DNA from: Azolla caroliniana
Lineage: Eukaryota; Plantae; Polypodiophyta
DNA: 64,000 nt
Direction: 5' to 3'
Assembly: GCA_043228905.1 (NCBI GenBank)
Contig: JBHGNT010000009.1
Coordinates: 17,174,001-17,238,000, forward strand
Shown here: piece by piece, positions 5,578-54,400 of the stretch
Layout of the letters: every line of letters starts with the position of its first letter
How positions within the stretch are numbered: position 1 is the stretch's first letter
Position numbers and translations under genes: made by a program
The notes under the pieces: generated by a model
Told to the model about the DNA's origin: nothing
Database searches by the model: none
What the model saw: the letters and a program-made list of their open reading frames with translations, nothing else

Positions 5578-6372
5578 TGTAAGTAAGACCATCAGTCTAA
5601 ACAGATGAGGCAACATCCACAACTAAAATAGAATTTGAGACAGACAGACAGACAAAGATAGGCACATAGTGTAACTGTATTATTCAAACTCAAAGTTACA
5701 AAAGAATGGCGGCAACCAACACCATCTATAAACTAGTTACAAACTTAGTTATATACTAACTGACTTAGGGCAACCACCCTTTGATCATATTACAAATATG
5801 TCCTTGTCTAGTTTGTCCAAATGGCACAATGTGAATACGACCATTATACACCCATATTCGACAATCCCCCATAATGGGCGTACACAACAAAAGAATTTGT
5901 AATATAATACAAAACAATACAGATTATATAAAACGATGTTTGAACAAGTCGATTGTATTGCTGAATCGGCAAAGGCCGAACAAAAAATCGAGTCGGCTAG
6001 TCTAAAACACTAAAGTCGGATTGGTTGTGTCGAATGCCGAATTCCGAAACGTCGAAATGCCGAAGCCAATTGTCTGAAGTCACCTCTGTGTTCGACTAAA
6101 TCAAACCGATTTTTTCTTAAGCCCATTTGGTGCCTTAGTGACCGGAATCGATCACCCGAAAGACACTTGGTCATCACGTCTGCAACGTTGTCGGCCGAAG
6201 AGATCTTCTCGAGGCCAAGCTTACTTGTAATTATGCAATCCCGAACAAATTGATATCAAACATCGATATGCTTCATGGAATTATGATGCACCGAGTTCTT
6301 TGACAAGGCGACAACACCTTGATTGTCGCTATATACAACTGGAGTTGAATTAGTGTTGGTTTGCTGAAACGT
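5578..6372 (-). mobile_element. Ty1/copia 3' remnant (RNase H end, PPT, 3' LTR)
   Basis: Minus strand reads YSDNQGVVALSKNSVHHNSMKHIDV*YQFV (copia RNase H); PPT ATGGGGGAT abuts LTR start TGTCGAAT at 5863; left LTR boundary approximate. Confidence 0.75.
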
Positions 6373-6499
6373 TGTCATAGTGTATTTCATACACTACGTG
6401 AAAAATGTACGGAGTACCCGATTGAATAAGTATGAAGAAAAAGAAGAGAATATTAAAATGTAGGTTACATGCACAAGACAAGATTCAAACGTTGTACCT
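6373..6499 (+). mobile_element. 5' fragment of family X element, interrupted by copia LTR
   Basis: TGTCATAGTGTATTTCATACACTACGTGAAAAATGTA aligns with the start of 33532-34291, including the terminal hairpin and the B-box region CAAGATTCAAAC. Confidence 0.7.
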
Positions 6500-6793: not shown

Positions 6794-6860
<67 letters not shown>

Positions 6861-8521
6861 TAACATACATCTCTAACCTATTCCGATGCACAAGAATCAC
6901 CATCGATTCTTTACATGGTATCAAAGTGGTTTGGTAGCTCGATCTAGCCCATCCGCGTGTGTTGTGCTCTACGCCGACGTTCAAGAAGAACCGGCACATC
7001 GCTATCGTAATGCGGCGACATAGTTCGTATTCAAGAGAGAAGAAGAAGGAAGACATCTACATAGAACACCATGAATACTCAAATGGGGAGTGCTCTCCCT
7101 AGCGAGAAGTTGGACCGAAACAACTTCGCATCTTGGGAGTACAAGATGCACCAATACCTTGTCGGTCAAGGTTATTGGAGCTTCATTAAAGGAGCACAAG
7201 AAAATCGACCTGACCCAAAGGATGCCAACTACTCAACATGGGAGCCAGTGGCGAGTCGAGTAATGTATTGCTTGGCGACATGTGTTCATGACCACATGCT
7301 CAACTGCATTCGAGAAGCCACGATGCCAAAGGAAGCATGGGAGAATCTAAGGAAGATATTTGCCGCCAATACGACGACATGAAAGCTTCAACTCCGCCAA
7401 GAGTTGAACAACATCCAACAATGGGACTCGTCCATCACAATCTACACCTTGAAGATCAAGGATCTTTGTGATTCACTCGGCTCAATAAGCGTTAATGTGG
7501 AGGATGATGAGATGGTGCAAATATGCCTCAGTGGCCTTGCAGCACGGTCTGGCACAATGAGAACTGTCGTCCTACCAAGGGAGAATCCTCCCTCTTTCTT
7601 CGATCTTCAATCCATGTTGTTGGTTGAAGAAAACCATGTTCGAACGAGGAGCAACACCTCGAAAGGCCACATGCTCTACACACATTCGAACGGAGGAAGA
7701 GGACGCGGCCAAGCAAGAGGCCGATTTGGCCAAGGACGAGGCGGACGAGGTTCCACTTCCGACAACAACTCCCAATTTTGACAACAAGACGAAATCCATC
7801 GAGGAACCTAAGAAGGGGAGCTTCCATTCCGGTTCAACTCGACAAAACTCGATCGAATGCGGATATTGCGGCAAAATTGGTCACCACGAAGAAGAGTGCC
7901 GAAAGAAGATGCGTGAGTCGGCTTCCACTAGCCGACAACTCAACAAGTACGCCACCAACTCTAACTATGAAGATCATGGCAGAATGTTCGTAATGAGACA
8001 TAGAGCAAATTCTATGTCGGCCTCTAATTCGACTAATGCCTCCAATCTGGAAGATGTATGGTTCGTCGACACTAGTGCTTCGAACCATATGACGTCCCAT
8101 CAAGAATGGTTCCGAGACTTCCGAGAGCTGGATCAATCCGGTTATGTCGAGACCAGAGACGACACCACTCATCTGATTCGGCATGTAGGCAATGTCCCAT
8201 TCGGGAAAGAAGGTGAACAAACTTGCATCAAAAATGTCTTACATGTACCCACCATAACAAAGAATTTGGTCTTGGTCGGCCAAATTGTGGAGCAAGGGAT
8301 GCAAGTTCAATTCAACCAAGGTGATTGCTTTATCGAGAAAGAAGGCCGACTAATTGCTCGTGGTCAAAGGGAAGGCCGAATGTTTATCCTCAAAGCGAAC
8401 GAGGTAAAATCATCCATGTTTGCAAAGGGCCTCAAACCCGACACCGACATAGAGCTATGGCATAAAAGAATCGGCCATATCAATCTCAACAAACTCAAAG
8501 TGATGCAATCGAAAGCAGTCG
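6500..8521 (+). mobile_element. Ty1/copia element A, 5' part (LTR 6500-6915, PBS-Met, degenerate gag-protease-GAG-pre-integrase), truncated by element C
   Basis: TGTTGAG...TTTACA LTR; PBS TGGTATCAAAG at 6916; gag UBN2-type (NFASWEYKM..YL) from 7071, CGYCGKIGHHEEEC zinc knuckle, WFVDTSASNHM protease, LWHKRIGH. Confidence 0.92.
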
Positions 8522-8825: not shown

Positions 8826-8882
<57 letters not shown>

Positions 8883-11225: not shown

Positions 11226-11877
11226 CAGCCGGCACACGTGGATATATCTCATCGAGAAGAAAAGCGAAGTCTTCGACTATTTCCAGAACCTTCAAAGGCT
11301 AGTCAAAAAGGAAACGAAGAGGAAGATCAAGTGCCTGTGGTCGGATGGCGGAAGAGAATACTTTTTTGGCCAATTCAACAGTTATCTGCAGTAGAACAGA
11401 AATCGGAGAGAATTCAGTTGTCGATACACACCGGAACAAAACGGTGTGGCCGAAAGAAAGAACCGGTCGATTGTCGATGCAGCAAGGGCAATGTTGGGGG
11501 AGAAGAGCATGCCCCAATTCTACTAGGCTTAGGCGGTTCGAGCGGCCGTCTCAGCCAGCACACGTGGATCTATCTCATCAAGAAGAAAAGCGAAGTCTTC
11601 GACTGATTCCAGAACCTTCAAAGCCTAGTCGAAAGGGAAACGGAGAGGAAGATCAAGTGCCTGCGGTCGGATGGCCGAAAAGAATACTTTTCCGGCCAAT
11701 TCAACAGTTATCTGCAGCAGAACGGAATTCGAAGAGAATTCAGTTGCCGATACACACTGAAACAAAACAGTGTGGCCGAAAGAAAGAACCGGTCGATTGT
11801 CGATGCGGCAAGGGCAATGCTGGGGGAGAAGAGCATGCCCCAATTCTACTAGGTTGAGGCAGTCCGGACGGCCGTCT
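11226..11877 (+). repeat. Tandem duplication (~326 bp) of the integrase core of element C
   Basis: CAGCC(G/A)GCACACGTGGAT...GCCGTCT at 11226-11551 repeated at 11552-11877. Confidence 0.92.
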
Positions 11878-14800
11878 ACATCCAAAACCGGATCGGAGAC
11901 AAGGTGTCACAACATGAGCTATATTTCGGGCGGAAGCCGAATTTGATGCACCTTCGGATATTCGATAGCATAGCATATGTGCATGTACCGGATGAGAAGC
12001 GGAAGAAGCTAGATTTGAAGTCAGAGAAATGCGTCCTAGTCGGTTACTCGCATGAGTAGAAGGGGTATAAGTCTTAAAACCCCCAGACTAAACATGTACG
12101 AATAAGTCGAGATGTCGAGTTTGATGAGTCGGCATCATGGTACTCCCTACCGACTCTAACACCCAACGAATGAGGCTAGTGAGCCCGAGGAGGTCTAGGA
12201 AGAAGATGAAGACTTTGGCACTCTAGAAGAGAGTCCGATCTCATTACGGCTAAGTGGGCCGAATGAGCGGTTGAGTCGGGATGACCAGTCGGATGAAGAA
12301 CCGACGAGTAATGGAGACTCTACCGTGCTCTCCCGTGCAAGGAACCGAGGAGACAGTTCACGCGCAAAGAGAAGGGGAAGAAGAAGATGTTGGAATATGA
12401 TACCGGTAGTGAAGGGTCAAATCAGAGTGAATCTGACCCCGGAAAGGGAGAAGGTAGGTCTTTAGAAAGGAAGTTTGAACTGGCCAAGAAGGGCCTCAAA
12501 CCGGGTAACAAAAAGTTACCCCAGTGAACCCTTCATGAGGTACGGGTACAATGAGTACAAGGTGCATCACTATGCGTACATGACTAAGGTGGTGGAAGAG
12601 AGTGAGCCGGAGAGCTACGCAGAAGCAGCGAAAGACGCAAATTGGCGTGCTGCTATGGAGGAAGAAATGTGGGCACTAGATGCCAACGACACATGGGACC
12701 TCGTTGACCCACCCCGACAGTGCAATCCGATCGGTTGCAAGTGGGTGTACAAGGTAAAGTACAACGTTGACAATTCGGTCAACCAGTACAAAGCCCGGTT
12801 AGTGGCGAAGGCATACGCACAAACCCACGAAATCGACTACGACGAGAGCTTCGCTCTAGTAGCGAAGATGACGGCAGTTCGTGTGGTACTAGTTGTTGTT
12901 GCGGCAAGGGGAGGGCATCTTCACCAAATGGATGTGAAGAATGCATTTCTTCACGATGATCTTGATGAACAGGTCTATATGATCCAACCCCCCGGTTTCC
13001 AATCGGAGATGAACAAGTCGACAGTGTGCCGACTCAAAAAGTCGCTTTACGGTCTGAAACAAGCCCCCCGAGCTTGGAATGCGAAGATCACGCACCAGTT
13101 GCGTAAGATGGGGTTTGTGGCCTCTAAGTCTAACTCTTCATTGTTCATCCGGAACGGTCCGGACGGTCCGGTTTGCATTTTGCTTTATGTAGATGATTTA
13201 GTCATCACCGGACCCGAACTCGATGAAACCTGCAAAGTGAAGTCCCAACTGTCGAACGCATTTGAAATGAAGGACCTAGGGGACCTTCATTATTTTCTTG
13301 GGATCGAGGTGATCCGAACCCCTGACATCATATTGCTCTCACAACGCCATTATGTGTTGAATATGTTTCACAAGTTCGGCATGACGGAATGCCAACCGAT
13401 CTCTACACCCCTGGACCAAAACCTAAAGCACACGTCCCCACTCCGGTCCGGCCTGCGATGAGAAACGGTTCCAACAAATTGTCAAAAGCCTTATATACTT
13501 GAAGATCACCCGACCCGACATCAATTATCCGGTCGGAGTGATCAACTAGTTCATGCAAAAGTCATCCGTCCAGCATCTTCAATGCGCACACCGGATACTC
13601 CGGTATGTTAGCGGCACGAAGGACCGAGGACTGTTATACTGACACGGTATAGCTAAAGAGCTTGGCGGATATACCGATGCCGACTGGGCTGGTGATGCAT
13701 CGGATCGTTGATCCACCTCCGATTACATGTTTTCTCTTGGTAGTGCGGTTGTTGCATGGAGCAGCAAAAAGCAGCCAACATTGGCTCCGTCGAGCACTGA
13801 GGCTAAATACCGGGGTGCTACCATTTCCACCTGTGAAGCCATCTGGCTTCGGCGACTTTTGCGTGACCTCCCGATCGAGGTGCCGACCCCGATCCCGATC
13901 CACTATGACAACATGAGCAGCATACAGCTCGCCAAGAACCCAGTGTTCCATACTCAAACAAAGCACATAGAAGTGCATTATCACTTTGTTCATGAGCGGG
14001 TACTGAGCGGTGAGGTTGAACTTCGGTATGTTCACACGGATCGGTAGTTGCCGACATCTTCACCAAGCCGCTCGGATCGGACAAGTTGCAACATTTTTTG
14101 GAGATGCTCGGCATTCAGCATCTCGATGTGCTGCACTTGAGGGGGAGAACAAGAACGGGAACGAATGGCACCGGACAAGGAGCCGGAGAGGAAGAAAGAA
14201 CCAAGGAGGGAGATAAGCAGAAAAAGGAAGCCGAGCCGACCACAGGAGTCGGCACATCCGAACAAGTCGGAGCAAGCGGCAGCGGCGGTAGAGTCAAGAA
14301 GGACAGAGCCGACCAGAAGAAGAAGGCCAAGACCAGGTCGTGGTCTGATGTGGTGAAGGGTCTGAAAACCGGAGACGAGTTGGAGAACACCAACTCAGAC
14401 AAGAGCCGGAACGAATCGGAAGCGACCGATTTGGACAAGAGCTAGAACGAATCGGAGACAGTTGATTCGGTTCAACAGATGGATTCGGAAGAGCCAGATC
14501 TTCTTAAGGCCAAGTGGACACGGACGCAACAGAAGTCGACGCCAACACGGAGGAGCTAACGGGTCGAGAAGCGCTAGAGTCGTAGCAGCGAGGGAGCTAA
14601 AATGGGCCTGTTGAGCAGACAAGTCGACCGAGGAGATGGAGGTACGCTGAACCGGAAGGGCCGCGGCAAACGAGACCGGACCGGATGAGGAGCGCGAGCA
14701 AGGTAGAATGACACCAAAAGGAGCCGGATGGAAGGACCGGCTACTGCAGACACTGACACCACGATCCGACCTCAAGTTGAGCTTGAGGGGGAGTGTTGAG

Positions 14801-15739
14801 CGAGCAAGCTCAACCGGATCCGGATCGGCTGAATAAGCCAGAGCCGGATCGGTATGCGGAACGGAGAACCAAATCGGTGTCCGGATGATATTCGGAACCA
14901 AGAGCCGGATCAAAGAGCCGGATCGGAATGAAACCGGCAAGCTGTTAGAGGCCTATGGATCCAGCCTAGTACGTATGCATATTTTTGGGAGTCAGTGACA
15001 ATTAGTACAACAATATTACATTTCACATTATACATGTGAAAGTGAGTAGTGACTCTCGATGTTCAAGAACTTTACCAATGAACGTTGCAATCAAGAGTGC
15101 ACATTCTGGTTGTGAGAGAAATTCGTGCAAGGATTGGGCTTGGTTGAAAATGTGCGCAATGAGAACCTAGTGGAGAGTAAATGTCACTTCCCACATACTC
15201 AACACATAAGGTAATTCTTGAGATGACTTATTGGACAGTCATGATAATTCAAGCATCATACTCAAATACCCACCAAGAAGGGTAAGCACATACATGTGTG
15301 CATTATTTTCACATAGAGAGTTTTTATTACAAAAAGTTGTCGTGTCTTTAGTCAATTCAATTGCCCCAAACTTTAGTAGATATTGAGTGGAGACCTTATA
15401 TACCCTCTCTTAGTAATATGAACGATTGTACTGAGTTTGCATAGATAAGCCAGTTTGTACCTCGTTTTATGTGTGTAGGAAAATCACATAGAGAGGTTCA
15501 ACCAAATCACACGACATTACAAACCAGGCATGATTGAGACAAGCGTGATTGCTTTGAGTCTCTCATGTTAGAATATCAAGTTGGGGTCTAGTTCATAACA
15601 CTCCATACAAAATCTGGGATAAACTTCCTTTACATAAAGGAAGGATTTCTTACCAACTTGAGAGGAGAGGAGTGAAGTGGAACCCATTGGCCAACTCTTC
15701 TCTTTGAACCAAGCCAAGAGTTTCCATAATGGGTTTGAA

Positions 15740-31258: not shown

Positions 31259-33531
31259 ATGTTCACTAAATACTAATGGATATACACTATACTATTATTT
31301 TTGAGCTCGGGTATTCACAATTTTAGAGATGTAACAACCATCTCCAAAATATCTTCCTTAAAAGCTCTCTCTTATAAATGCAAACATGAAACTAACATCC
31401 CAAAATTTGCAAACAAAATGCGAGTCATGCATGTTTTTGACTCATAGTTTTGCTTTTATATTTTGACAATAGCTTATTGTCATAGACTTGTATTTTGAAA
31501 ATATTTATAAGAAAAATGACCAAGAGATTACTCTCTATAGTGTAATTAAAGTAAGAATTCGATTAGTACTCTTCACGTCCAAATGTCAATATATTGGAGA
31601 AATATAAAAAGTTTTGACATCCCAAAATAAATAAGGGTTAATCATTTGCATGTCACCATTGCATTACATTGCATGTAAGTAAGTTATGGTGAACACGCAC
31701 CTTACCTAAACACAATCTCATTTATCAACATTCTCCCCCTTCCACCAAATAATCAATAAGTAAGAAAACCCACAGCCAAAATTCCTTAGAAAATGTTGGT
31801 ACCAACTACATCGCCCTCCTCCTCGAAGAACAAGAGAGTGACTAATATGCTTCAAATGTAGGTTGCACAATACTCGATGAAACTAAAAACCAATTGGATA
31901 ATTTATTAAGATTATCATAAGTGACCCCGATCACATGGTTGATTAATCTATCTTGTTAGGTGCATTAGGCAAAAAAAATATATCCCTTCAAAATGGTTAA
32001 GTTGATATATACTCCAAATATATTGCATATTCTTGTTTACATGTTTGATCTTAATTTTCATACAATTGGGAGCTTCATCTTTGATCAAGCATATATTTGG
32101 GAGATGTTTAAATGAGATACATTACTAGTTTCTCAAAGTTATACTGTTAAGAATCAAGCTCAACTTGGTCTAGTGTGTGAACTCACCTTGAGAGTGAATA
32201 GACACTCCAACGGTCAAGAGTCACCATTATGCCACCTCTTTGTATTCTAGCATTTAGTATGAGTCATAGAATCATATTCTATGACACATAACTTATGAGC
32301 TTTCACATTCCCCATGCTCCATGAGTTTTGTAGTTAATGAAGAGAGAGGGTGACTATATAAATCACCCTCCTCCCACCTTGTATATGTCGAGTCTTTCTC
32401 CTTTGTTAATATACTTTACCTTGCGTATTCTCTATGTTTTACTCCTTATCTCTCTCACTCTCTCTCTCTCTCTCATACACACACATAACTCACATCTCTT
32501 CCGCTTCAGAAGAATCATATCTGATTCTTTACATGGTATCAGAGCGGTTTGGTAGCTCCATCTAGCCCATCTGCGTTGACGTTCAAGAAGAACCGGCTCA
32601 TCGCTATCGTAGCTATCGTAGCTTTGCTACATAGCTCGCATTCGAAGAGAGAAGAAGAAGAAGAAGAAGAAGAATTGACATAATGAATACTCAAATGGGG
32701 AGCGCTCTCCCTACCGAGAAGTTGGATCGAAACAACTTCGCATATTGGGAGTACAAGATGCACCAATACCTTGTTGGACAAGGCTATTGGAGCTACATCA
32801 AAGGGGAGCACGAAGACCGACCAACCGAAGCGGCTCCCGGATACGCGACATGGGAGCAAGTCGCAAGCCCCGTGATGTATTGATTGGCGACATGTGTTGA
32901 CGATCACATGCTCGGCTACATTCGCGAAGCCAAGACGCCGAAGGAGGCATGGGAAAATCTACGAAAGATTTTCGCAGTGAACACAACCGCAAGAAGGCTT
33001 CAACTCCGCCAAGAGTTGAACAACATTCAACAAACGGACATGTCCATCATGACATACACCTCGAAGATCAAGGAGCTTTGCAATTCGCTTGGCTCGATAA
33101 GCGTAAATATCAATGATGATGAGATGGTGCAAATATGCCTCAACGGCCTCGCACCACGGTTCGGCGCGATGCGAACAACCATTCTAGCACGGGAGAAATC
33201 TCCCTCCTTCTTCGAGCTCCAATCAATGCTATTGGTCGAAGAAAACCACGTGCGTACAAGGAGCAATGAGTTGGAAGGCCGCATGCTCTACACGCACTCA
33301 AACGGAGGAAGAGGACGCAGATGAGCGAGAGGCCGATTCGGCCAAGGACAAGGCGGACGAGGTTCGACCTACGACAACAACTCCCAATTTCGGCCCCAAA
33401 ACGGAAGCCAACGAGGAACCTTCGCAAGAAGGGGGAGCTTCCACTCCAGCCCGAACCGTCAAAACACAACCAAATGCGGATATTGCGGAAAGTTCAGCCA
33501 CCACGAAGAAGAGTGCCGAAAGAAGATGTGA

Positions 33532-34291
33532 TGTCGTAGTGTGAATCACACACTACGTGAAATATGTAAAATACTATATCCAATTCAAAGTACGTATAAT
33601 AAAAAAATATTTATTATGTACATAGGGCAAGATTCAAACCCTATACCTGCACGTAGACAAACCCCAACTTTACCATTGTACTAACTTATCCTTAATATTT
33701 AATACCTATAAGGCCTTTATTTACGCCTACCTTTATTAAAAAGGTAAGTCATGCATTTTTACAGTGCGTGAATACTTTATTTATAAGAAAAATGTAAACC
33801 AATAAAATATTACTCGTGCACATTAGCGAGCATGAGCACTATATTTAGGAAATAAAAGCATAGTGTAAAAAGCAACTCATGCACATTTAGTGTGCATTAA
33901 CACTTTAGAAAAAGCATAGAGTCTATCTATAGAAAAAGCATGGATTGTTAAGACTCTCTCATCACTATATAAGGATGAGGAGCACAATGTAATAGGTGTG
34001 AAATATTTGGGAAATTGGATATATTTCCTAAAACACCAATTAATAAAATATATTCGTGGGATTCACGAAGTTTTATATAATCTACTCTTCCAATCTATGC
34101 TAAATTGTTATCAGGATTCTAAATATTAATAAATCTAATTATATATATACTTGTGGGATTCACAAGTTCTTTTATCTCTTTCTTATAATCTATTCATAAC
34201 TAGTCTTGTCTCAAATTCTTCCTCCTCCTAGTCCAAAACCCAGTGGTTCCCACCCGACTCACGCAATGATCTGGTGCCGAAAGGCACGACA
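33532..34291 (+). mobile_element. Family X LTR-like insertion in gag of element B
   Basis: TGTCGTAG...CACGACA; interrupts the KKM(R)ESA sequence after the zinc knuckle; TATA CTATATAAG ~33965; minus-strand tRNA-like segment 33624-33686; terminal hairpins. Confidence 0.85.
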
Positions 34292-36522
34292 ACGCGAATC
34301 GGCTTCCACAAGCCGACAACTCACGAATTACGCGCACAATTCTGACTACGAAGAGTATAGTGGAATGTACGGGTACAACTCCAACTACGAAGATCGTGGC
34401 GGAATGTACGCACACAACTCCGACCGTGGCGGAATGTTCATGATGAAACATAGAGCAAACTCTATGTCGGCCTCTACCTCAACTAGTGCCCTCAATTCGG
34501 AGGACGTATGGTTTGTGGACTCCAGAGCCTCAAACCATATGATATCTCATAAAGAATGGTTTCTCGAACTTCGAGAGCCGAAGCGACCCGGTTATGTCGA
34601 AACCGGAGATGACACTATGCACCCGATTCGGCACATCGGCAATGTTCCGTTCGGCGAAAGAGGTAAGCAAATATACATTAAAAATGTCTTCATGTTCCCA
34701 CCATCACAAAGAATTTGGTCTCAATTAGCCAAATGGTTGAGCAAGGGATGCAAGTACGATTCGACCAAGAAGGGTGCTTCATCGAAAAAGAAGGCCGAAT
34801 CATCGCGCACGGAAGAAGAGAGAGCCAGATGTTCATTCTCGATTCACACGAGATGAAATCTGCCATGTTCGCAAAAAGCACGAAAGTCGACTCCGACATA
34901 GAGCTATCGCACAAGCGAATCAGCCACATCAATCTCAACAAACTCAAAGCAATGAAATCGAAAGGAGTTGTCATCGGACTCCCGACATTCAAAGAGAAAG
35001 AGATTGATGCGAAGTGTGCCAATTCGGCAAGCAACACCAACACCCATTCCCGAATGAGTGGAACGTGAGCAAAGGTCTCAACGTAGTCCATTCTGACGTA
35101 TGGGGACCGACGCAGACGACTACATTCGGCGGATGCCAATATTACGTGCTCTTCATCAACGACTTCTCCATGCACACTTGGATCTATCAGATGCGGCAAA
35201 AGAGCGAAGTGTTCGGACACTTCCAAAAATTTAAGAATGCAGTTGAGAAAGCCACGGGTCGTCATGTACAATGCCTTCAATCGGATGGCGGCAAGGAGTA
35301 CTTCTCGGACGATTTCACAGCGTATCTCCGAAAGGAAGGAATTTGGCGAGAATTCACTTGCTGACACACTCCGCAACAAAATGGAGTAGCCGAGCACAAA
35401 AATCGGCACATCCTTGAAGTAGCGCGGACCATTATAAACGAGAAGCATATGCCCAAGTCATATATGGGTTGAAACTGCAAATATGGCCGTCTACCTAATG
35501 AACCGGTGCACAACATCTGAAGTGCATGAGGTCATTCCGCACGAAAAATACTTCAGAAAGAAGCCGAACTTATCACACACCCGAATATTCGGCGCGATAG
35601 CGTACGTGCACATCCCTGACGAGAAGCGTCAAAAGCTCGACCCGAAGTCGGAGAAATGTATCCTCGTAGGATACTCACTAGAGCAAAAGGGGGACAAGTG
35701 CTACAACCCCTCAACTCGAAAATCTCGAGTAAGTCGAGACGTCGTTTTTGACGAGTCCGCATCCTGGTACGCACCAGAGACAACTTCGACTCTGACTCTG
35801 CTCGACCCGGAATCCGCCGAACAAGAGGATGAAGATCGCCTTACGCGCATGTTCGAAGAAAGTCCGATCACGACCCAATTGAGCGGACCACAAGAGCCTT
35901 TGAGTGATCAAAGCACATCACGGCCTAGCCCGAAGATGGACAAAGGCAAGGCGAAAATGGCGGAATACGAAGACGATCGCTTCGACGACGATGAGTCGAC
36001 TCCCTCACTCGACAATGAGTTCGACGGCTTCGATGTACCAATCGGAGCTAAGAAAGCCCTCATCTCTGCAAATGAAAAGCTTCGTCGCTCCACCCGTGAC
36101 AAGAATTCAGTCAACCGATTCGACTACAACGACTACATGGCATATCACTATGCCTTTATGATGAAGGTGGCAACAATACACGAGCCAGAAACATTTTCCC
36201 ATGCAACCAAGGATCCATGATGGATCGAAGCCATGAACGAGGAGATGCAGGCCCTACGCAAGAACGAGACATGGGATCTCGTTCCCACCTCACCATAACA
36301 AAAGGCGATCGGATGCAGATGGATTTACAAAGTGAAGTACAATGCTGACGGTTCCGTCAACTGCTACAAAGCGCGACTCGTAGCGAAAGGCTACGCCCAA
36401 ACGCACGCAGTTGACTACGAGGAGACCTTTGCCCCGATGGCAAAGATGACGACGGTACAGACCGTAATTGTGCTTGCCACGGTGAAAGGGTGGCACCTCC
36501 ATCAAATAGACGTCAAGAACAA

Positions 36523-37883
36523 TATCGCGAAGATTTTTGACAATGGTGTGAAAATCGCATAAAACATACGAAATCGAGTATGAATCATATAAAACAATAA
36601 TAGTGAAAATACTATTTTAAATATTTGTAATATCTTAGTACAAAAAGATGGAGGTCTGCAAGAGCTTTCAAATGCACCTTACTACATAAGAAACGGACAT
36701 CTATGTCTCAAGTCATGTGGGTAGGAAGTTTGCAAAGGAAAAGAGAAAAATAAAATTGTGAAATATACCACATAGATAGGAAAAAGTTTAGGCCCAGCTA
36801 TATAAGCAGATTGAGATCCATCATAATTTATCTATGTGTTAAGAGCACATAAGAATGGTTGGACTTGAGCCACTTTTGTCTAGATGGACATATGTGGCTA
36901 AGTCGCCGGATGTGGCTAAGTGCCCAAACCGGTTGGTGAAGAAAAACTCAAACCGGCTGACGACAGAACCAGAAAACCAGATGGAGCCGGCAATCCGTGA
37001 CCGGATGCATCCGGCAACTGGTGATTGGACGGATCCGGCAACCGGTGACGGAATCGGTGATCGACAGTAACCGGTGGTAACCGACGACATCCGGAGCCAG
37101 CAAGACCGACATCCGACGATGGAGCCGGTGTGTCGGTGAGTCGGTGAACACCGACAACGGAGCCGGTGACCGGCAAGCGACTCGGGATGCGGACTAGGCC
37201 GAACCAAACGGATGCAAATCGGATGGATCGGTCGGGTCGGTTGATCGCGGTGCATGGTGTCTTAAAGATGTTTGGTCCAAAAGCCTAATAGTATTTTGTG
37301 CATAAAAGAAAAAGATGTAATCAAGACTTGAACTTAACACCTCCAAGATAGGAAGCAATAGGCTTGCCATTAAGCCAAACCATTTCTTTAGAGATTATAT
37401 TTTTATCATTATGACTTTACATGTAAATTCTCATACATGAGAGCTAAAATAAGTGGCATGGTTATCATGCACCACATGTAATACATGAGCGCCAAATGGC
37501 AAACATGCATTTTATGCATGTCTTGTACCCTCAAATGCATGAGGGCATCTATAAAAGAGGGGAGGAAAAAAAGAAAAGGTAATGTAAATTTTTTATCAAG
37601 AGCTTTGTACTTTATATCAAAATTAATATTAAGAATAAAATTCATTATCCAATTGATATATTAATCTTGTTCTTCAAATCTAAAGTTAAGAGTTCAATCT
37701 TACTGTCTCTCTCCATTTCAATCTCTCTCAATCTAAAGTCAAGCGTTTAATCTCAATTTCTCTCTCTCTCAATCTATCTTAAATACTTTCTCGCTAAAGC
37801 TTGTGCGTACATCAAGTCCTTCTGGTCCAGAACCCCGGCGGTTCCACCTCACGATCCGCACATAGTGACGGATCTTCACGACA
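36523..37883 (+). mobile_element. Family X LTR-like insertion in RT of element B
   Basis: TATCGCGAAGAT...ATCTTCACGACA inverted ends; splits DVKN|AFLQG; GC-rich CCGG repeat tract 36900-37250; minus-strand tRNA-like segment 37319-37381; TATA CTATAAAAG ~37550. Confidence 0.85.
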
Positions 37884-40800
37884 TAGCCTTTCTACAAGGC
37901 GAATTAGAAGAGGAGGTGTATATGATACAACCACCCAGCTTCAACTCAAGCACTGCGTGCTTGGCATTCGAAGATAACGCAATATCTTCATCAAATCGGC
38001 TTCCCTATGTCAAAATATGACAATTCCCTCTACATACGAAGCGATTCCGCAAGTCCAATCGTCATCATCTTATATGTGGATGACCTAGTCATTGGAGGTG
38101 AGCATCTCGTTGAAATCAATCAGGTCAAATCCCTCCTTTCCAACAAGTTCGAGATGACGGCCATGAAGGAGCTCCACTACTTCCTCGGCATAGAGGTAAT
38201 TCGGACTCCGGCCGGAATCATGATCTATCAACAACACTATATCCTCAACTTGTTATACAAGTTCGGGATGACTGAGTGCAAAATCCGCGAAAACCCCGCT
38301 CGATCACAATCTCAAACTAGATGCGAACTCCGGCACCAAAGCGTGTGAGCCGACTCAGTATCGGCAACTCATCGGGAGTCTCATCTACCTCACGATCACT
38401 CGACCTGATCTCAATTATCTGATCGGTCTCCTTAGCCAATTCATGCAAACACCGTGTGGTACTCACTTGGATTGAGCTAAGCGAGTTCTACGATACGTGA
38501 GCGGCACAATGCATTGTGGCATCCTCTACAAGACCGTGATGCCAATACGCCTCGAGGGGTACACTGACGTTGATTGGGCCGGCTACAAAGCCGATAGAAG
38601 ATCAACCTCCGGATTTATTTTTTCCCTCGGCAGCGGAGCAATATCCTCGAGCAGCAAAAACCAACCAATCGTCGCTCTTTCGAGCATAGAGGCGGAATAC
38701 AGGAGCGCGGTAGTGGCTGCATGTGAAACCGTGTGGCTCAAAAGAATACTCAAGGATTTGGGCGTACCCATCAAGGATTCAACTTCCCTTTACTGCGACA
38801 ACATGAGCAATGTCTATATGGCTCGGAACCCGATGTTCCACGCGCGAACAAAGCACATCGAAGTGCACTATCACTTCATCCGAGAGCGTGTTCTAGTTGG
38901 CGATGTCGACCTACAACACATTAGCACCAATCTCCAAATGGCCGACATCTTCACTAAAGCCTTAGGAGCCGACAAGTTGTGGCAATTCATGACCGATCTC
39001 GGATTGATGATCCCTGACCTGCCAAGTTTGAGGGGGAGTACTAAAGACACTACGCAATAACGCGTGGATTCCGTAACCGCGCAACGAAGCCGCGAAGAAA
39101 GACGCAAGCCGAAGCACAGACTTCGCAACTACGCACAACGCAAGCTGGAGCACAGATTCCGCAACTCCGCATAAATGCGAGTCGACGCGGACTCCAAAAC
39201 GTGAGTTGAAGCGGATTTCGGATACCGTCTAAAACCGACCCAACTTGAGCTTGAGGGGGCGTGTTGAGAATCAAGCTCAACTTGGTCTAGTGTGTGAACT
39301 CACCTTGAGAGTGAATAGACACTCCCACAGTCAAGAGTCACCATTATGCCACCTCTTTGTATTCTAGCATTTAGTATGAGTCATAGAAACATATTTTATG
39401 ACACATAACTTATGAGCTTTCACATTCCCCGTGCTCCATGAGTCTTGTAGTTAATGAAGAGAGAGGGTGACTATATAAAGCACCCTCCTCCCACCTTGTA
39501 TATGTCGAGTCTTTCTCCTTTGTTAATATACTTTACCTTGCGTATTCTCTGTGTTTTACTCCTTGTCTCTCTCACTCTCTCTCTCTCTCTCTCTCATACA
39601 CACACATAATTCACATCTCTTCCGCTTCACAAGAATCATATTTGATTCTTTACATATACAAACACTCAATGATTTTGAATGTTAAAACATTTATGAATTT
39701 ATGTCTTCCTTCTATGTATCAATAGAAATTATTGAGGGAGAAGCTATAATTGAAGACAGAATGGAAGATAATTTAATTTACATAAACTCTTGAAGTCAAG
39801 AGATTGGGGGCTTTTGAATTCACGGCCTTGTGTTTGTGGACTAGACTTCAAGTTTGTTACTTTGATATATGGCATGTAGTTCAGGAGAAATAGATAAACA
39901 AGAAAAACAAGAATGTGACCCTAGGACATTGCATGTTGAAAGTCAAATGATTGCGTATAATGTTAATAGATCGTAGGGTTTATCGATTATGCTAATGTAT
40001 GAGATATTATGTGCGCATGTGTGATATATAGAAAGAGAGAGAGTAAGCTTGAGTTTCTGGAATGTGTTTGTTTTGCACAATTTCAAAGGAACATGTAGAC
40101 ATCAATTTATCAATTGTCTAGTGGCAAGGCTATAATTTATAAGTGGAGTGTCAAAATCTTCGTTTTAATGGGTGTTTGGTCATTTGAAACCAAGAAAACC
40201 TTTTGCACATTTTGAGATAGTCGTTCAATATCTAAGGCATTGGGGATTATGGCATAATTAGCATATGCAGAATGCCTTTATTTTTTATGTTGAATATGGG
40301 GTTGAAAGATACTTTTAACGATTAAAAGGCATACTAGTATAATAGTTTTCCTTATTGGAAACTTTAGGGAGGTTGTCAAAGAGGAAATTAAAGATTTGTA
40401 GGCTAGCAATGCGTCATGTTCGTCGTTTGCATTGGCCTTTATCAATTGGGACTTTTAGCTCCATAATGATGGATGCATCTAGATATAGATTAGCGGTGTC
40501 ACGAGAATTCTTATTGATTGATTATGTGGGTACCCATAGGATATCATAGTTCATATACTATTGTAATGACTTCCGTAATTAACATGTTATTATTTATGGG
40601 GGAAAAGTGAGTATGCATGAAGGTTGTCTAGTGTGTTATGGAACCCATGATATTATATTAGTTTCATTGTTGCCATGGACAAAGACAGCTTTGCATTCCT
40701 TATTTCGCTCAGGTCGAATTAGTAGTGGAGAAAGAAGGCTAAGATGGGAATCACATGGGTTGCATGGGACCATCTAACAATTCCTTAGCACTTCGGGGGA

Positions 40801-44791: not shown

Positions 44792-47700
44792 GATCATATT
44801 CTAATTAAGATTCATCACTCTTCATGTGTTCAATATTCGGTTGTCTTGTGGCATGACACACTCCTATGATATGTATGGAAACCGTGATCCAATACAGAGG
44901 ATTGTAATTCTTTGCAAAAAGAGTCACTCATGGCTTTTCGGCTATTGTGTTGGTTTGGAAAGGAGAGATTGTGCTCTCAATTTAATTGTTTGTTTAGATT
45001 GGGGTTCAAAGAGGTGGGAGATGTAATTAAGGCTTGATCTCAAATAAATTTGGAGCTTATTGAAGCACGACAATTATTACTTATACCGCCAAAGTATGGG
45101 TTTATATGGCAACAACAAAAAATAACATTGATGCAAGGTCATTTACCACTACAAACCGAATACCAACTGTGGGTTGATCGACATTTATGGGGTCAAATGT
45201 CATTTTTACAATTGCTTATTAATCTCTTGCATCATTGCTTCATTGAGTATGTTCAAGGGCTATCGTTTAAGAATAAAGAAAAAATGGAAATACAAACTCT
45301 AATTATGGATGGTGGTTGATCTTGAAACGTAGTTATCATTCTAAGTTGCCACTTGTAGTAAAAGTCTTCATTTGGAGAATTTTGTTTGGGGATTTGCCTT
45401 TAAGATTAGCTCGCCTTATGTCCTCAGAGGTCAAATATGATCCATGGGACAAGAATCAAATCATTTCTCCATCATATGTGTGCAAATGAGTTGCAAGACA
45501 TGAATTTAGAGGTTTTTTTTATATCGATAAACATCACAACCAAGAGTGCAATAAGAGACAATGAGAGAATATGTGTATGGATTTTGATACTGCATGGGGA
45601 ATGCAAATGTCATCAAGAGTAAAAAAGATCATAATAGAAAATGTGAGAACCCACTCCTAAAAATCCTAAGAAAATGTTGGTACCAACTAAGATCACCCTC
45701 CTTTGATGAACAAGAGGGTGGCTCAGATAACAATTTTCATTAGTAGGGTACCATCCTAGACGCTTATATGTAGAACAAGCAATATGCTTGAAATGTAGGT
45801 TGCCTGCACAATACTCAATAAAACTAGAATTTAGTTGGATAAATGATTAAGCTTAATAGAAGTGGCATCTATCAAATGGTTGACAATCGATATTGTTAGG
45901 TGCATTAAGCCAAAAATATTTTTTCCATCTAAGATGGTTTGGTTGAAATATACTCTAAATACGTTTTATATGTATATTTTATGTGTTTAATAATAAATTT
46001 CATACAATTAGGAGCTTACTCGTTGGCCAACCATATATTTGGTAAACAAGTTTTGCAAAGTTATATGCAAGCTCGATAATTTTGAATACCAAACATTTAT
46101 GTCTTCCTTCTCTCTATCTACAGAATATATAGAGAGAGCGTGTGATTGAAGAGAATAATGAAGATACTTTAAATTACTTAAATCTCTTTGAGTTAAAAGA
46201 TCATGGGTTTTGAATCCATGGCCTTGTGTTTGGAGTTTGGTCTTCAAGTTCATTACTTCAATATATGACATATAGTTTAGGAGAACTTGACAAATGGTGC
46301 GAGAAAGTTGTGCAAAAATTAAGGATTTGAACCTAGGACATTGCCTATTGAAAGTCAAATAATTGCATAGATAGTTAGCTAATCGTGATGTTTGTCAAAT
46401 ATGCCAATAATTGAGTCATGATGTGTGAGATAGATAGCCATATTTTGTCGCAATGTAATCCGAGACGGAGTCTGTTTTTTCCTATTTACGAGATATTGGA
46501 GATTACGTCATAAATGGGTATATGCAGAATGCTTATTAACACATCTACAAAAGTGGTAGACAGTATTGCTGTGGCAATTCAGTTTATTTGATGCCAAGAT
46601 AGTGGGTCTTTGAACAATTCGCATACGTCAATTCGTAATCAGAGACAAAGACTGTTTATCCTATTTCAGAGGCATTGGAGATTGCGCCGTAATCGGTATA
46701 TGCGAAATGCTTGTTAGCACATATGTGAAACTGGTAGAGAGTACTGATGTGGCAACTCTGTTTATTGGAGCAAGCTGGAGTTCTTTCTTCGGTGGAAAGT
46801 GTTCATCATATTGCCTGTTGGGGATTTCAACATGTCCCACTAGCGGTGAGACACCACTCAATCGTGGTAAAAATTATAGTGTTTTTCACACACACACATT
46901 CATTCATTCATATAATTGTGCCGCATTGTAACTGGAAGTGCGAAACTCTCTACTCCCCCCGAGACTGATGAGAGGGGTAGCGTCTGGAAATATCGTAAAA
47001 GTAAGTAGAGAGGGGCACGTTGTGGCAAATATTAAAAAAGACGGTGTTGTGTTCAGAGTCTTTTTTACACACTAAAATGACTCACTTTATCCCTCTCTTT
47101 TCTTATTTTTTGCTTTTTCATTCTTTTTGGGCTTTCCTCTAGAAAAGTATATGTATGTATGTATGTATATGAAGCCATTTATTATTTTTTCATTTTCGTG
47201 CTTGTATGTATTATTTCTCCGTCCACTTCTTCTTCTTCTTCTTCTTCTTCTTCCAAAAGCGTCGCGATTTCTTCGTCTTCGTTTTCTTCTTCTTTTTCTG
47301 CTGCTGCTTCTGCCTTCTGCTCCTGCTCCCGCAAACCCTAACTGTGCGTGCCACTCGCCACGTCTTTCTCGCCGGGGTCACCTTCTCTCCTCAGGTTCGC
47401 TGCTCCCTCTCTCTTCTCCTACATCTTCGTCTTCTTCCCAGTTGTTTCCTTCCGTTCGCTGCTCAGAAAAATAAATACAACACCGCAATCTGCATCTTCA
47501 CCATCGATCCATCCTGCTCTGACAATCCACCACGGAAAACAAAGCTTCCACATTTTAACGTTTTTCTTTCTGTTTTTTTAAAATAAGAAGCACATTGAGC
47601 TTTATTTTAAGTTCATCTCTGCATCGAATCCTTCACATGCTGCGCTTGCATATAACATTCTCTTTCTTCTCTTTAATCTGATTCTTTACAGAGTACAGAC

Positions 47701-48477: not shown

Positions 48478-51400
48478 ATGCTTAACAGCACAGGAAACTC
48501 GAACTTGCTTGATTCTAATAGCACAACAAGACCATTCACATCATCGTTCTCAGGACAATCTGGCTCAAATCCTATTTTCCATCAGACAGGTAAAGAAAAA
48601 TAGAGAGCGTGCATAGGGAAGAATCCTCTTGTGAATAATGCAAGGTAGTGTCGAATGTCAAACGTTGAAAGGGTTTCAGTTCTTTGATGCATGCAGGATT
48701 GATTGTTTTGGATTGGCTATGATTCAGGCAGCATTCAGGGGTTGCAGAACGTGCATGGGAATTACAATATGCCGACGATTCCTTCAATCTCTTCGAGAAA
48801 TTCTGGTCTAGGATCTGCACCAGGTGGTTCTGCTCACCAATCACCAGGAAGATTCACTAGCAACAACTTATCATCTTCTTTGGCTCAGGCATGTTTATTC
48901 TTTGCTATTTTCACTATTATTTTTTGTTATTCTTATTCTGCGTTCTCTATTAGGACTCCTGTTGATGTAGGTGATGGAATATTACTGATGGAAAAAGTCT
49001 GAAATACCCCTGATTATTATTTTTATTTTCACTAAATGCCCTTGTATGTTTGTTATTTCCCCAAATGCCCTTTGCCAACTCCCAAAGAAGGCAATAAACT
49101 GACTGTATAATCATCAAATAATACTATAGTTGAGAAAAAGGGGAGAAATTGACTATATAATTGCTCAACTAGTGCATATGATCACTCTTTCACAGTTTGA
49201 CCAAGGGCATTTGGGGAAACTATGAAAATTTGGGGGCATTTGGGGAAATAAAGAAAATGTTAGGGGCTTTTTGGATTTGTTGTCTTGTTTTTTATGTGGA
49301 AGTTCTATTTCCCTTCCTTATAAAAGCAATACCTTGAATATTTCAGATATCCCATAGCGGACTGCATGGTATGACAAGTAGGAGTGGCGGGAGTGTTGGG
49401 GGAAGCAGTGCATATAGTACGAGTATGAATGGATCTGTCAGTTCTGTTTCGGGGCCCTCTCAAGGTTCGGGAGGTGTGAACAATAGAGGAACACTTCCTG
49501 GTTTAGGGGTTTCTCCATCAATGATGGGAGGTGCTGGTCCTCGTATAACAAGCTCGGTCAGCAATATGGTCACTGGTTCTGTGAGTGGCGGTGCTAGCAT
49601 GGGTCGCACCATTAATCCTGGAAGTGGACTCAATCTACCCACTTTCAGTGGTTCACGGGTGAATCTAGGTTCAAGTAATGTGTCTGGAGGTGTTGGTATG
49701 CAAGGACCTGGAAGACCTCTCAGTAATGTACTTCAACAAGGTAAACATAATTTCAACTCAAACGGGAACCTTATCCTTAAGTATTGTTCAGATGATAAGT
49801 TCTACCCATAATCTCAAAGTTTTTTCACTGATAATACAAATAGAATGCAATTTACTAATCGTAAGTAATTATTCTTTAATCCTGGACTGGAAACGCTGAT
49901 AATCCTGAGTTTGTGCCAGTTTTGCTAATAAAGTGCTTGCTTTTAGCCAAATCAGCAAACATGTTTATCCATAAAGTTTGTCAGTGTTTGAATCAGAACT
50001 TGTCCTCAACTTGTCTAATCAAGGAGCAGAAAGAACTTACTAGAGTGAAATGTTCATATATATATATATATTTATTTATTATGCATTCTAGATTTGAAAT
50101 GCTGAGAAATCTCGACTTTGTCCCAGTTTTACTAATGAAGTGCTCAGTTTTAGTCAAACTAATGAACATGCTTATCCATAAGTTTTGTTAATGTTCGAAT
50201 CAGCTATTATCCTCAACCTGTTCAGTTTAAGGAGCATAAAGATCTGATGAGAATGAAAGGTTCATATATATTTGTTGTGTGCATGTGTATATCTACACAC
50301 AACATATGTATATGTGCTACATTACAGATGCATATATGTATCTGCATGTTCACACACATTTTTATACATGGACGTACGTATGTATTTAAATTTGAAGCCA
50401 ATATTTTCGGTTTAATAATGGTTGCCACATGGACATGTTCCTAAAACCTCCCTTTAATTGTTTGAAAATTTGAACTGACACAACTTTCATTCTTAACACA
50501 ACACTAAAAATATTCATAGTTTGAAAAATCTGAAATCTCTAAGAATTGACTTGTAGGACGTAGTCTGAAAACCTGTATCTTGTTCAAAACCCTAACCTTT
50601 AGATACAGACAGCCTCATACAGCTTGCAGCTCATGAGAGAGAATACTAGAACTCAATTCCAATGTAACTGAGGAAACATCAATAAAAACTCGTGTGGTAT
50701 CTCTAAACACTTCCATTTTGAAACTCAAAATCTGCGTAGACTATATGCAAACTGGGCCATAGACTTGTCCCATGTGCTGAGTTCATATACAATTGCTGGT
50801 TTAGTTTCCCGATCACATAGAGTTTCCTTTCTGGGAGAAGTAAACAGTTATTAGTGCCAACTAGGTTTTGACCATTTAAGATTCAAAGAGAAAGGAAAAA
50901 CAGGTTCTCCAGACAACTACAATGGTCTAAATATTGTGGGAAAGGGTTTCCTTATCGACAAAGAAATTTTATGATCATAATTATGAGAAGAAGGTAGAAA
51001 ACTCGCCAAGACATTGACTAAGCTTATGACAGTCAATTGAATATCTTGTAGCATGAAAGGTGGAAAAGATGAGAAAAGAACTATCCCTCTGCATTTAGGG
51101 AAATGATGTAATTTGACATTGATGAATCTCTTTTACAACCAACTATTAAGTTCTAATAAAAAAATATTCAGCCAAATGCTGGACTCTAGTGCACAAACAT
51201 ATAATGTGGTTTGATGTTTGAATGAGGCAGTGATTTAGCTTTATATAACCGAATAGAAAGAGAAAACAAAGATGTACACTTTTAGTGATATTCATTGGAC
51301 CTTGAAATATTGATCCTATCTTCAATTACACAATCCTAAAGCTGAATGTATGGGTGTAAAAACAGTTGTGATGGGAAATTGTTCTTAGTTCTTGCTCAGT

Positions 51401-54400
51401 ACATCTGTTAAATGAAAGTCTTTTAATGCATATTTCCTCGTTAAACCAGGGACGTTTTCTTGCTCTGTGAAGCAGTTTCTCTCAATGCATCTCTTCCTGA
51501 ATGCCTTCCAGTATGTGTTCAGTGTCCATGCTCCAAATATTGTCTTGCAAACCTGGCTTCACTTTTGGGCTCAACTGTCCATAGATTGTTTATAGAGTCC
51601 AGACTATTGTTCGAGATAGATAAATTTTAGAGAGAGGGAGCTCTAAGTTTAACTCTGTTTAAACTATAAGTTGTGTTTATATACTAGTTCTTATAGGCAT
51701 AGTAAACAATTTATCTCCTGCTAGAAAAGTTCATTACCCTTTTCATATTCAGAAGCCGACAGCATTTGTTGCATATGTGATTTCTAGTCTCTATACGTAT
51801 CTGCACTGTATATAAGCTGGACATTTGTTCAATGTTGATGCTTGATTGCTTTTCATGGCAATTATAAAACAAATGATCACTTATTTTTTCATGAACTCTT
51901 GTTACCTATGTTGATGTTTCGAACTAGAGATGAGCATTGGTAATTCAAAAATCTCTTCCACTGGTTAGTAGGTAATGACATGAAGGGGATTAGGATGAGA
52001 ACATGTACTGGTCATAAACAAAGTCATGATCTATTAATGCCATTATTTGGTACTGGAATTATTAAATCACCTCAAAACTAGAAAGAAGGCTTACCAGGAT
52101 GCAAAGTAAGATCCTAGATTTGTTGTTGCCTATACATTATACAAAAAGGGCATGCTAATTACCAGTTCAATAGATGAACTTTTAGCAGACCACAAATTCA
52201 ACATTTTGGAAGTTTTGTGAAGCCATACAATATTGAATTTGAATTTTGAGAAAACAAAGTCTTATACAGCAGTGCCTGAGAATGAACTGATGCATTTATT
52301 TCCTGAACTGTGATGCTAAACATGCCCCTAGAAGTTATTGCAGGTTTTTTGACTGTCTGCAAAGTGAGAAGTATGCAGTATTCCTGCATATAAAAGAAGC
52401 TAGATCTTTGCAAGAGTGCTTCAAGATCTACATCAGAAAATATAAAAAAACATTATACTTAACTCAATAAATTCCTCTTGACTTTACATGCACATAGTGT
52501 GGTATACCAGTGGCTAGGCATGAATTAGAAGCATGTAGAAAACTTTATGCTAACATGATTAATTATGTATGTCCAAATACGAAGTTAGAAGCTCAATGCT
52601 GGAGACCCAAAAGCTACAAGTGTGCACAATAAGCTGCAGAAGTTTGTAAAGTTGAAACCCTTCGTTGCTCATTTTTTAAAGTAGGAAATGGTAATATGAA
52701 ATCGTGGCTCATTTTTTTGAAGTAGGAAATGGTAGTAGGAAATCATGACAGTTACAGTTTTAGTTTCCTATTATCTATGGAAGGAAATGCAATTCCCTTC
52801 ATCTATGCTATTGCGTCTGCTACTATACCAATTAAAAATTTGTTCATCAGCATCTGCTTGATTGAGGAATGAAAGGCAGTAGTGGGCAGATAAGAGAAGG
52901 GGAAATATCATGTCAGTGTTTAAAGATTTTGATGTTCTGAAACTTGAGTATCAATTATTTTCTTCTTTTTGTTGTAGAACTATTAATATTCTTGTTTTAT
53001 ATGATTGTTTAAGTTGTCTAATGCTTTTATGATTCTGAAACTCATATTTTGGAAAGTTTCCATTTAATTTTGTTTGTGCTCACAACGCACATGTCTTCTG
53101 ATCAGCCTCACCACAGATGGTCTCACTTCTGGGTAGCAGTTTTTCTAATTCGCTTGGAAATGTTTCGCAAGTGCAAACGGTTGCTGGAAATGGTCAATTA
53201 ACATCTATGGGATTGGCAAACGATGGTAATTCAAATGATGGGGTCCCTTTTGACTTAAATGATTTCCCCCAACTATCAACTCGTCCAAGTTCTGCTGGGT
53301 CACAGGGAAGTATAGGTGGGTGCATGCCTTTTTCTGTGTTGTTTATTGTTTGTACTGTGACTCTTTCATCACAGATAACATTGGCTCTGTAGCATCCCTA
53401 AGAAAGCAAGTTGGTGTCAATCCTATAGTCCAGCAAAGTCAGGAGTTCAGCATCCAGAATGAGGACTTTCCAGCTTTGCCAGGTTTCAAAGGTATAGGCA
53501 AGACTTGAAGATGCTTTTATTATATATAGGAATCATGATGGACTTCATGCAACGTATTTGCAATTATAGGTGGCAGTAATGATTTTACAACAGACCTACA
53601 TCAGAAAGACCCACAACATGAAAGTGCCCTTGCATTGATGCAGTCGCAATATGCGGTAAGGGTTGATTTGTACTTAAATGTACGAATTGTTTAATTGTTC
53701 GAAGGTCTTCTGCTGGCACATTGTGTATGTAGTTGTTTCACTCTTTTGCTAGGATTACTTTTGAAGTTATGGAATTATGTGATCGATACTTAGTTGACAT
53801 ACTTCTTTTTATCTTTAAATTTTGACTGCATTATATCTATTCCATTGGTTACTGTCTGAATTGATTGAGTAATGAAAACTAGCTTTTCCAGTTTTACACC
53901 CTTGAAGGATAGTGTATACAGTGTTTTAAAGGCAAGCTGAAAACGTATATGTGGTTACCAGTGGTTATTGCAAAGTAAATTGAATGCAAAATAGTATTGA
54001 GTTCTCATGGATGTTCCATTCCATTCTTAGAATTCTCACTTGATCAGGGTTTTTGATAAAATTGGAAAAAGAGGACATATATGGCCACAGCTACCAGGAT
54101 ATGTTTATGAAACTCCGGTATGGCATGTCCAGTTTTCTAAACCTTGGAAGTAGCAATGGTATTTCATACAGACATTAGCATAATGAGAGAACAACATTCT
54201 GTTCCTTGTCTTCTTTCTGTCAGGTTTTAATTTTGACTATCTACATCCAGTTTCTAATATGGTCCCATGTCTATGCTGTATTGCTTACATAAATCAACTG
54301 AACACTGAATGTGTGTTTATATCCTTAGCCAAATGCTCGAGGGATAACAAGGGTATCTAAGGAAGTTCTACTTGTGTATGTATTCCTAAATTTATATATC

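What the first reader, a model, noticed from the sequence alone, without database searches (positions are those of the whole stretch)
33530..34293. Second independent case of the same 0-TSD, +2/+2 junction
Seen: removing GA-[TGTCGTAG...CACGACA]-AC restores AAG AAG ATG TGC GAA TCG GCT, in frame with KKMRESA of sister element A (one CpG transition). Two different insertions in the same host share this geometry, which argues for a mechanism rather than chance. An alternative reading (6-bp ATGTGA/ACGCGA TSD blurred by CpG decay) would require the host to be frameshifted by 2 nt.
Basis: partly seen in the sequence, partly recalled or inferred. Interest (0 to 1): 0.7.

Follow-up and report, generated by a model that had tools for sequence, protein, structure and literature searches.

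The report
Decayed 4-bp duplication, not zero-TSD
The 760-base insert is likely a lone end-repeat of a plant jumping gene whose relatives duplicate four bases centred on CG when they insert, so the 'no duplication plus two extra bases per side' junction is likely an ordinary 4-base scar that mutated afterwards, although bases left over from the element's own ends are not excluded.

Summary
A 760-bp TG…CA insert (33532-34291) sits in a copia gag with 4 extra bases (GA left, AC right). Empty-site copies are in frame, so the 6-bp TSD alternative fails.

But +2/+2 is 4 net bases, exactly what a 4-bp TSD leaves. Relatives of the insert show this geometry. One copy has a perfect GCGT duplication in an in-frame host. 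7 of 7 right flanks are centred on CG or its decay product. In 5 of 5 junctions with a checkable host, the LTR-adjacent base is the host's base. This matches the Phygy rule (4-bp NCGN TSD, Neumann 2019).

Read this way, the TSD is GCGC and now reads GTGA/ACGC: two methylation-type transitions and one transversion. A family-wide zero-TSD mechanism is rejected.

One residue remains. These three changes are unlikely at background rates (about 0.6-1.5%). The neighbouring insert (ACAA/TAGC against ACGC) needs three transversions, which decay does not explain. A minority route that leaves element-end bases next to the LTR after a 4-bp staggered cut stays open (about 0.27).

The parts
33532..34291 (+). 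760-bp insert, likely a solo LTR of a Phygy-like Ty3/gypsy family (TG…CA, 6-bp terminal inverted repeat TGTCGT, TATA-like box at about 33966, no long ORF)
   Evidence: high copy over its whole length in 4 runs; a purine tract directly precedes the same 5' end in L007 and in one X1 contig
33528..33531 (+). left copy of the inferred 4-bp TSD (GCGC, now GTGA: C>T at CpG, and a C>A transversion next to the LTR)
34292..34295 (+). right copy of the inferred 4-bp TSD (GCGC, now ACGC: G>A in CAG, a CHG context)
32145..39654 (+). host Ty1/copia element B, broken in several places; LTRs at about 32145-32533 and 39262-39654; exact 5-bp TSD TATAC
   Evidence: LTR pair: 9 transitions and 4 transversions in 390 columns
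6369..6499 (+). 5' part of a third copy of the insert's family, left flank ACGT, cut off by copia A at 6500
7903..7927 (+). empty homologous site in sister copia A (KKMRESA)

Best explanation
The insert is likely a solo LTR of a Phygy-like Ty3/gypsy retrotransposon whose integrase likely cut the copia gag with a 4-base stagger at GCGC, and the duplicated four bases likely mutated afterwards into GTGA and ACGC, which mimics 'no TSD plus two extra bases'. Shown: 4 net extra bases; an in-frame host; a CG-centred site; exact 4-bp duplication in a relative. Inferred: integrase action, loss of the internal part by LTR-LTR recombination, and three later point changes (C>T at CpG, G>A at CHG, one C>A).
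For: Net skip of 764 in all 4 joint types with known letters. L004, a 64-bp deleted copy, has GCGT on both sides and its host ORF is in frame with one copy of it. Right flanks from 6 independent metagenome loci (7 junctions; L011 repeats L003): CG centre in 4 of 7, TG or CA in 3 of 7. Left-flank consensus ends ACGG in 18 X1 and 10 X5 contigs. The inner base equals the host's in 5 of 5 checkable junctions: L004 on both sides; L008 (G, as in the Glu codon of B's RNase H motif; sister D has Lys there, so G or A would fit); the right end inserted in L007 (T, as in 3 of 3 other family LTRs); L003 left (G, Val in 15 of 16 homologues showing the segment). Chance of 5 of 5 is 0.001-0.005. Phygy: 186 elements, 4 bp (100%), NCGN (PMC6317226, passages and supplementary file 3). 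CG and CHG sites in B's LTRs differ at 2 of 10 and 2 of 9. CHG methylation is enriched in repeats of the fern Ceratopteris (PMC9477723, passages).
Against: Three changes in 8 bases have about 0.6% probability at B's LTR rates, or about 1.5% with the upper transversion bound. Both copia TSDs with two intact ends that I checked are unchanged (TATAC, GAAGA). The neighbouring insert needs 1 transition and 3 transversions (about 1e-5 to 1e-4), all three transversions within two bases of the LTR ends. A rough likelihood sketch with assumed inputs favours end-derived bases over decay by 3-530 fold for this junction before priors. Only one relative (L004) gives both flanks from one host, and 0 of 4 insertions bounds an aberrant route only below about 53%. 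No gag-pol of this family was seen.
Confidence: 0.62

Rival explanations
1. Same 4-bp staggered, CG-targeted integration, but the one or two bases next to each LTR end come from the element's own cDNA ends (untrimmed terminal bases or error-prone gap filling) and replaced the inner TSD bases. This would be a minority route of this lineage.
For: In both inserts of B the unexplained changes lie next to the LTR; the left inner base is A in both. One X1 contig has A between the purine tract and TG. Insert 1 fits two replaced bases per side with no mutation, against about 1e-5 to 1e-4 for decay. Retained terminal dinucleotides occur at retroviral junctions; abnormal insertions of any kind were 1 of 216 and 2 of 178 in control cells and 5-10% in repair mutants (PMC2797772, passages).
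Against: 5 of 5 host-checkable inner bases in relatives are templated. The purine-tract-side dinucleotides seen are AA and AG (L007), not GA. The PBS side of the family was not found. The two ends lie on opposite strands, so both mismatches would have to be fixed in favour of the element (inference). In PMC2797772, proviruses read at both ends were abnormal only at the 3' end (abstract).
Confidence: 0.27
2. True zero-TSD event: an unprocessed blunt cDNA with 2 extra bp at each end was joined into a break between C and G without staggered cutting.
For: Needs only one CpG change here and none at insert 1; accounts for both ends at once.
Against: Both sites are CG-centred like the family's integrase targets (0.5% by chance at B's CG frequency of 0.071). 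The outer extra bases G and C are what a CG duplication gives. The family's flanking dinucleotides vary (right: GC, GC, AC, AT, AC, CC, GC), and L004 has a perfect TSD, so this cannot be the family rule.
Confidence: 0.05
3. Solo LTR formed by recombination between two insertions at the same site in two different host copies, or other junction rearrangement, so the two flanks have separate histories.
For: L003 has flanks from two unrelated hosts, so inter-element recombination or chimeric assembly does occur in this family.
Against: B has one TSD (TATAC) and a continuous body; two insertions at one site would carry near-identical TSDs and would not explain the mismatch.
Confidence: 0.03
4. 6-bp TSD (ACGCGA, left copy decayed at two CpGs) in a host that had already lost 2 nt.
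For: 4 of 6 bases match and both mismatches are CpG transitions; a joint that skips 766 exists at low depth with unknown letters between.
Against: All 4 joint types with known letters give net 764; the family makes 4-bp TSDs; the 6-mer is not CG-centred.
Confidence: 0.03

Closest known systems
Phygy clade of non-chromovirus Ty3/gypsy elements (Physcomitrella patens; Neumann et al. 2019, PMC6317226; passages and supplementary file 3 read; the per-element table and FASTA were too large to read)
   Same: 4-bp TSD with NCGN preference, described there as the only plant LTR lineage with a sequence preference; TG…CA termini; nesting in other LTR elements (PMC6911290, passages).
   Different: The host here is likely a fern (best named hits Adiantum and Ceratopteris at 70-75%, the named mosses Sphagnum, Physcomitrium and Ceratodon at 56-62%), whereas Phygy was defined in one moss. 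No gag-pol or PBS was seen, so clade membership is untested. Their 100% TSD figure comes from a search that required a TSD.
Abnormal retroviral host-virus junctions with retained terminal dinucleotides (HIV-1, MLV; PMC2797772, abstract and passages read)
   Same: Extra one or two bases next to the LTR end that come from the unprocessed cDNA; model for the main rival.
   Different: Rare, mostly in repair-deficient cells, and one-sided where both ends were read; here both ends would be affected and total length would equal a normal TSD.
Helenus TRIMs with tRNA-like LTR sequence (PMC10886601, passages read)
   Same: Both inserts carry an antisense stretch that resembles tRNA A and B boxes by eye.
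   Different: The plant Helenus has a 120-bp LTR and a 5-bp TSD; ARAGORN and Rfam found nothing here.

Membership tests
Phygy (Ty3/gypsy) | 4-bp TSD | tested here: met
   L004 has an exact GCGT duplication with an in-frame host; net +4 at the window site. Only one relative has both flanks from one host.
Phygy (Ty3/gypsy) | NCGN target preference | tested here: met
   Right flanks CG in 4 of 7 and TG/CA in 3 of 7; left target flanks CG in 2 of 2 loci plus window 6369-72; consensus ends ACGG in 18 and 10 contigs.
Phygy (Ty3/gypsy) | RT/RH/INT phylogeny in the Phygy clade | not testable with these tools
   No full-length element was recovered: no whole genome held; 7 family loci lack a linked pol.
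Phygy (Ty3/gypsy) | PBS mostly tRNA-Trp | tested here: inconclusive
   None of 7 right-end junctions is followed by a TGG-type PBS; no 5' LTR-internal junction was identified.
LTR retrotransposon solo LTR | TG…CA termini with short inverted repeat | tested here: met
LTR retrotransposon solo LTR | same sequence occurs next to a polypurine tract | tested here: met
   L007 and one X1 contig
LTR retrotransposon solo LTR | two copies flank gag-pol in an intact element | not testable with these tools
   Contigs held are short; none shows two LTRs around a coding region.
Zero-TSD element (family-wide rule) | fixed terminal dinucleotides and no duplication in any copy | tested here: not met
   Flanking dinucleotides vary between copies and L004 has an exact duplication.

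The most novel reading that the evidence does not exclude
A CG-targeting gypsy lineage of ferns often integrates with sloppy end repair: after a 4-bp staggered cut, one or two bases of the cDNA's unprocessed ends replace the inner TSD bases at both ends. Such insertions look TSD-less and are missed by annotators that require a TSD. Both inserts in element B would be products of this route.
Probability: 0.27. Interest if true: 0.55.

Novelty: new member of a known kind. Interest (0 to 1): 0.22.

Why it matters
If the best reading holds, this is ordinary. It extends the Phygy-type 4-bp NCGN rule to a likely fern genome and warns that CG-centred TSDs decay quickly and can look like 'no TSD plus extra bases'. 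If the rival holds, it would show frequent retention of cDNA end bases at both ends of natural germ-line insertions, which the one paper I read on this reports only as rare retroviral errors. It would also mean that TSD-requiring surveys undercount this lineage.

Tried and rejected

Chance matches dropped: both viral-contig hits of the right-end motif (L001, L002) and 2 of the 9 metagenome hits (L005, L010) are phage contigs that match only about 21 bases. Further scans found nothing, so the family of insert 1 has no flank data.

L003 first looked like a second mismatched pair (ACGG/GCGT). It was dropped as a pair because its flanks come from two different hosts. L006 and L009 have no checkable host. 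The L007 ACAG flank was considered as a PBS side and rejected as unproven.

Fixed unprocessed dinucleotides as a family rule: rejected, because the flanks vary. 5-bp TSD: 0 of 5 matches. Tyrosine or serine recombinase ideas: no supporting gene or family pattern.

Rfam and ARAGORN found no RNA gene in the inserts. The Atlas gave no answer.

Seven paper searches were answered; in their listings I saw no report of a zero-TSD +2/+2 plant LTR family, and none naming Phygy in ferns in title or abstract. Most listed papers were not read. Searches (GingerRoot, passages; 6-bp TSD; Tcn1, passages; 5-bp TSD) do not fit.

Seven look-ups of earlier findings gave nothing on this junction.

Full report
Setting. 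No whole genome is held. The window is plant DNA, likely a fern: an exon of a NOT2/VIP2 gene has its best named hits in Adiantum and Ceratopteris (70-75% identity) and 56-62% in the named mosses. Element B is a Ty1/copia copy at 32145-39654 with gag, protease-region and SH3 Pfam hits, LTRs 95.7% alike and an exact 5-bp TSD TATAC.

Observation. The insert spans 33532-34291, starts TGTCGTAG and ends GCACGACA; GA precedes it and AC follows it. Sister A reads KKMRESA at the empty site. I laid contigs of 4 runs (at most 3 samples) on 33380-34450. All 4 kinds of empty-site joint with known letters skip a net 764 bases (767-3, 766-2, 765-1, 776-12), and the deepest joint also skips 764 (letters between not given). 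The host is in frame and the junction has 4 extra bases. One joint that skips 766 has unknown letters between and about 1-12% of the listed joint depth; 80 further joints were not shown. The 6-bp TSD is therefore unlikely but not formally closed. An X5 contig likely carries the same left junction.

The missed alternative. Two extra bases per side is the same length as a 4-bp TSD. Against a target GCGC, the flanks GTGA and ACGC differ by C>T at CpG, G>A in CAG (CHG context) and one C>A next to the LTR. The G and C of the '+2/+2' are the duplicated CG.

What relatives do. A metagenome scan with the right-end motif gave 9 loci. 7 belong to the family, 2 are phage chance matches, and L011 repeats L003, which leaves 6 independent loci. 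Their 7 right junctions read GCGT, GCGT, ACGT, ATGT, ACAG, CCGC and GCAC: CG in 4 of 7 and its decay products in 3 of 7. Left target flanks are ACGG (L003), GCGT (L004) and ACGT (window 6369). L004 is a 64-bp internally deleted copy with GCGT on both sides, in a gypsy-like ORF whose two sides are in frame when the 4-mer is counted once. In one search, loose ends before 33532 have a consensus ending ACGG in 18 X1 and 10 X5 contigs (agreement 0.41 and 0.46; the two runs may share loci). An inner A appears in 3 of 22 non-PPT left-end contigs of X1, so GA is not a fixed end.

Inner bases. Where the host can be checked, the LTR-adjacent base is the host's in 5 of 5 junctions: L004 (both sides), L008 (RNase H motif; G or A would fit), the nested right end in L007 (T as in 3 of 3 other family LTRs) and L003 left (Val in 15 of 16 homologues that show the segment; 18 were returned). 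L003's two flanks belong to different hosts, so it is not a pair. A purine tract precedes the 5' end in L007 and in one X1 contig, which supports an LTR. The bases between tract and TG are AG and AA.

Known counterpart. Neumann et al. 2019 (PMC6317226; passages and supplementary file 3) list Phygy as 186 elements with 4-bp TSDs (100%, NCGN) and mostly tRNA-Trp PBS, the only plant lineage there with a target motif. Their search required a TSD. The insert works like Phygy on TSD length and target. Membership is untested, because no pol or PBS was recovered.

Evidence against simple decay. B's LTR pair differs by 9 transitions and 4 transversions in 390 columns, with 2 of 10 CG and 2 of 9 CHG sites changed. 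At these rates, at least one transversion in 8 bases plus at least two methylation-type changes has about 0.6% probability, or about 1.5% at the upper transversion bound. The two copia TSDs checked are intact. The neighbouring insert (36523-37883; distant relative, score 77 against a maximum of 49 in 30 shuffles) has ACAA/TAGC against ACGC: one transition and three transversions, about 1e-5 to 1e-4. Its empty site is inferred from the RT motif and sister D, not from reads, and no flank data for its family were found. A likelihood sketch with assumed inputs favours end-derived bases over decay by 3-530 fold for this junction and by over 1e4 for the neighbour. Priors for such a route are low: abnormal insertions were 1 of 216 and 2 of 178 at HIV-1 junctions in control cells (PMC2797772, passages), and both ends would need fixing on opposite strands. 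My family sample bounds the route only below about 50%.

Mechanism. Likely: a Phygy-like integrase cut B's gag at GCGC with a 4-base stagger; the element later collapsed to a solo LTR; the methylated CG-rich duplication then mutated (0.62). Main rival: the same cut, but with element-end bases left next to the LTR (0.27). True blunt zero-TSD capture (0.05), recombined flanks (0.03) and a 6-bp TSD (0.03) are minor.

Verdict. The sequence observation is largely right; the zero-TSD mechanism is not supported as a family rule. New member of a known kind, interest 0.22. The open lead is the neighbouring insert, not this one.

Noticed in passing
window 36519-36522 and 37884-37887: Flanks of the neighbouring insert (ACAA / TAGC) differ from the expected ACGC by 1 transition and 3 transversions, all within two bases of the LTR ends; background decay does not explain this. 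It is the stronger candidate for retained end dinucleotides.
   Followed up: partly
window 5126-5141 and 37876-37891: The same 16-mer occurs twice; one copy spans the right LTR-host junction of the neighbouring insert. 0 of 100 shuffles gave 2 matches, but the test was post hoc; meaning unknown.
   Followed up: partly
window 33626-33690 and 37318-37382, minus strand: Both inserts carry an antisense stretch resembling tRNA A and B boxes by eye; ARAGORN and Rfam found nothing.
   Followed up: partly
L004 2908-2971: A 64-bp derivative that keeps only the two LTR ends, with an exact 4-bp TSD; possibly a deleted solo LTR.
   Followed up: partly
L007 96-986: A purine tract and LTR start, interrupted 33 bases in by an inverted copy of the same family at a decayed ACGT; upstream lies a 199-aa low-complexity ORF antisense to the LTR.
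   Followed up: partly
L003 (whole): Solo LTR whose left flank is an unnamed ORF family and whose right flank is a gypsy integrase: inter-element recombination or a chimeric contig. The left ORF's 18 homologues (up to 1075 aa) carry no precomputed Pfam domain.
   Followed up: partly
window 6373-15000: Nest: third copy of the insert family, then copia A (6500), then copia D (8522), then a solo A-type LTR at 9645-10100 with an exact TSD GAAGA; D has a 326-bp tandem duplication at 11226-11877.
   Followed up: partly
window 31764-32100 and 39697-40013: B sits inside a repeat whose other copy is at 45645-46425.
   Followed up: no
window about 48700-55600: Exons of a NOT2/VIP2 (CCR4-NOT) gene, closest to fern proteins.
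   Followed up: partly
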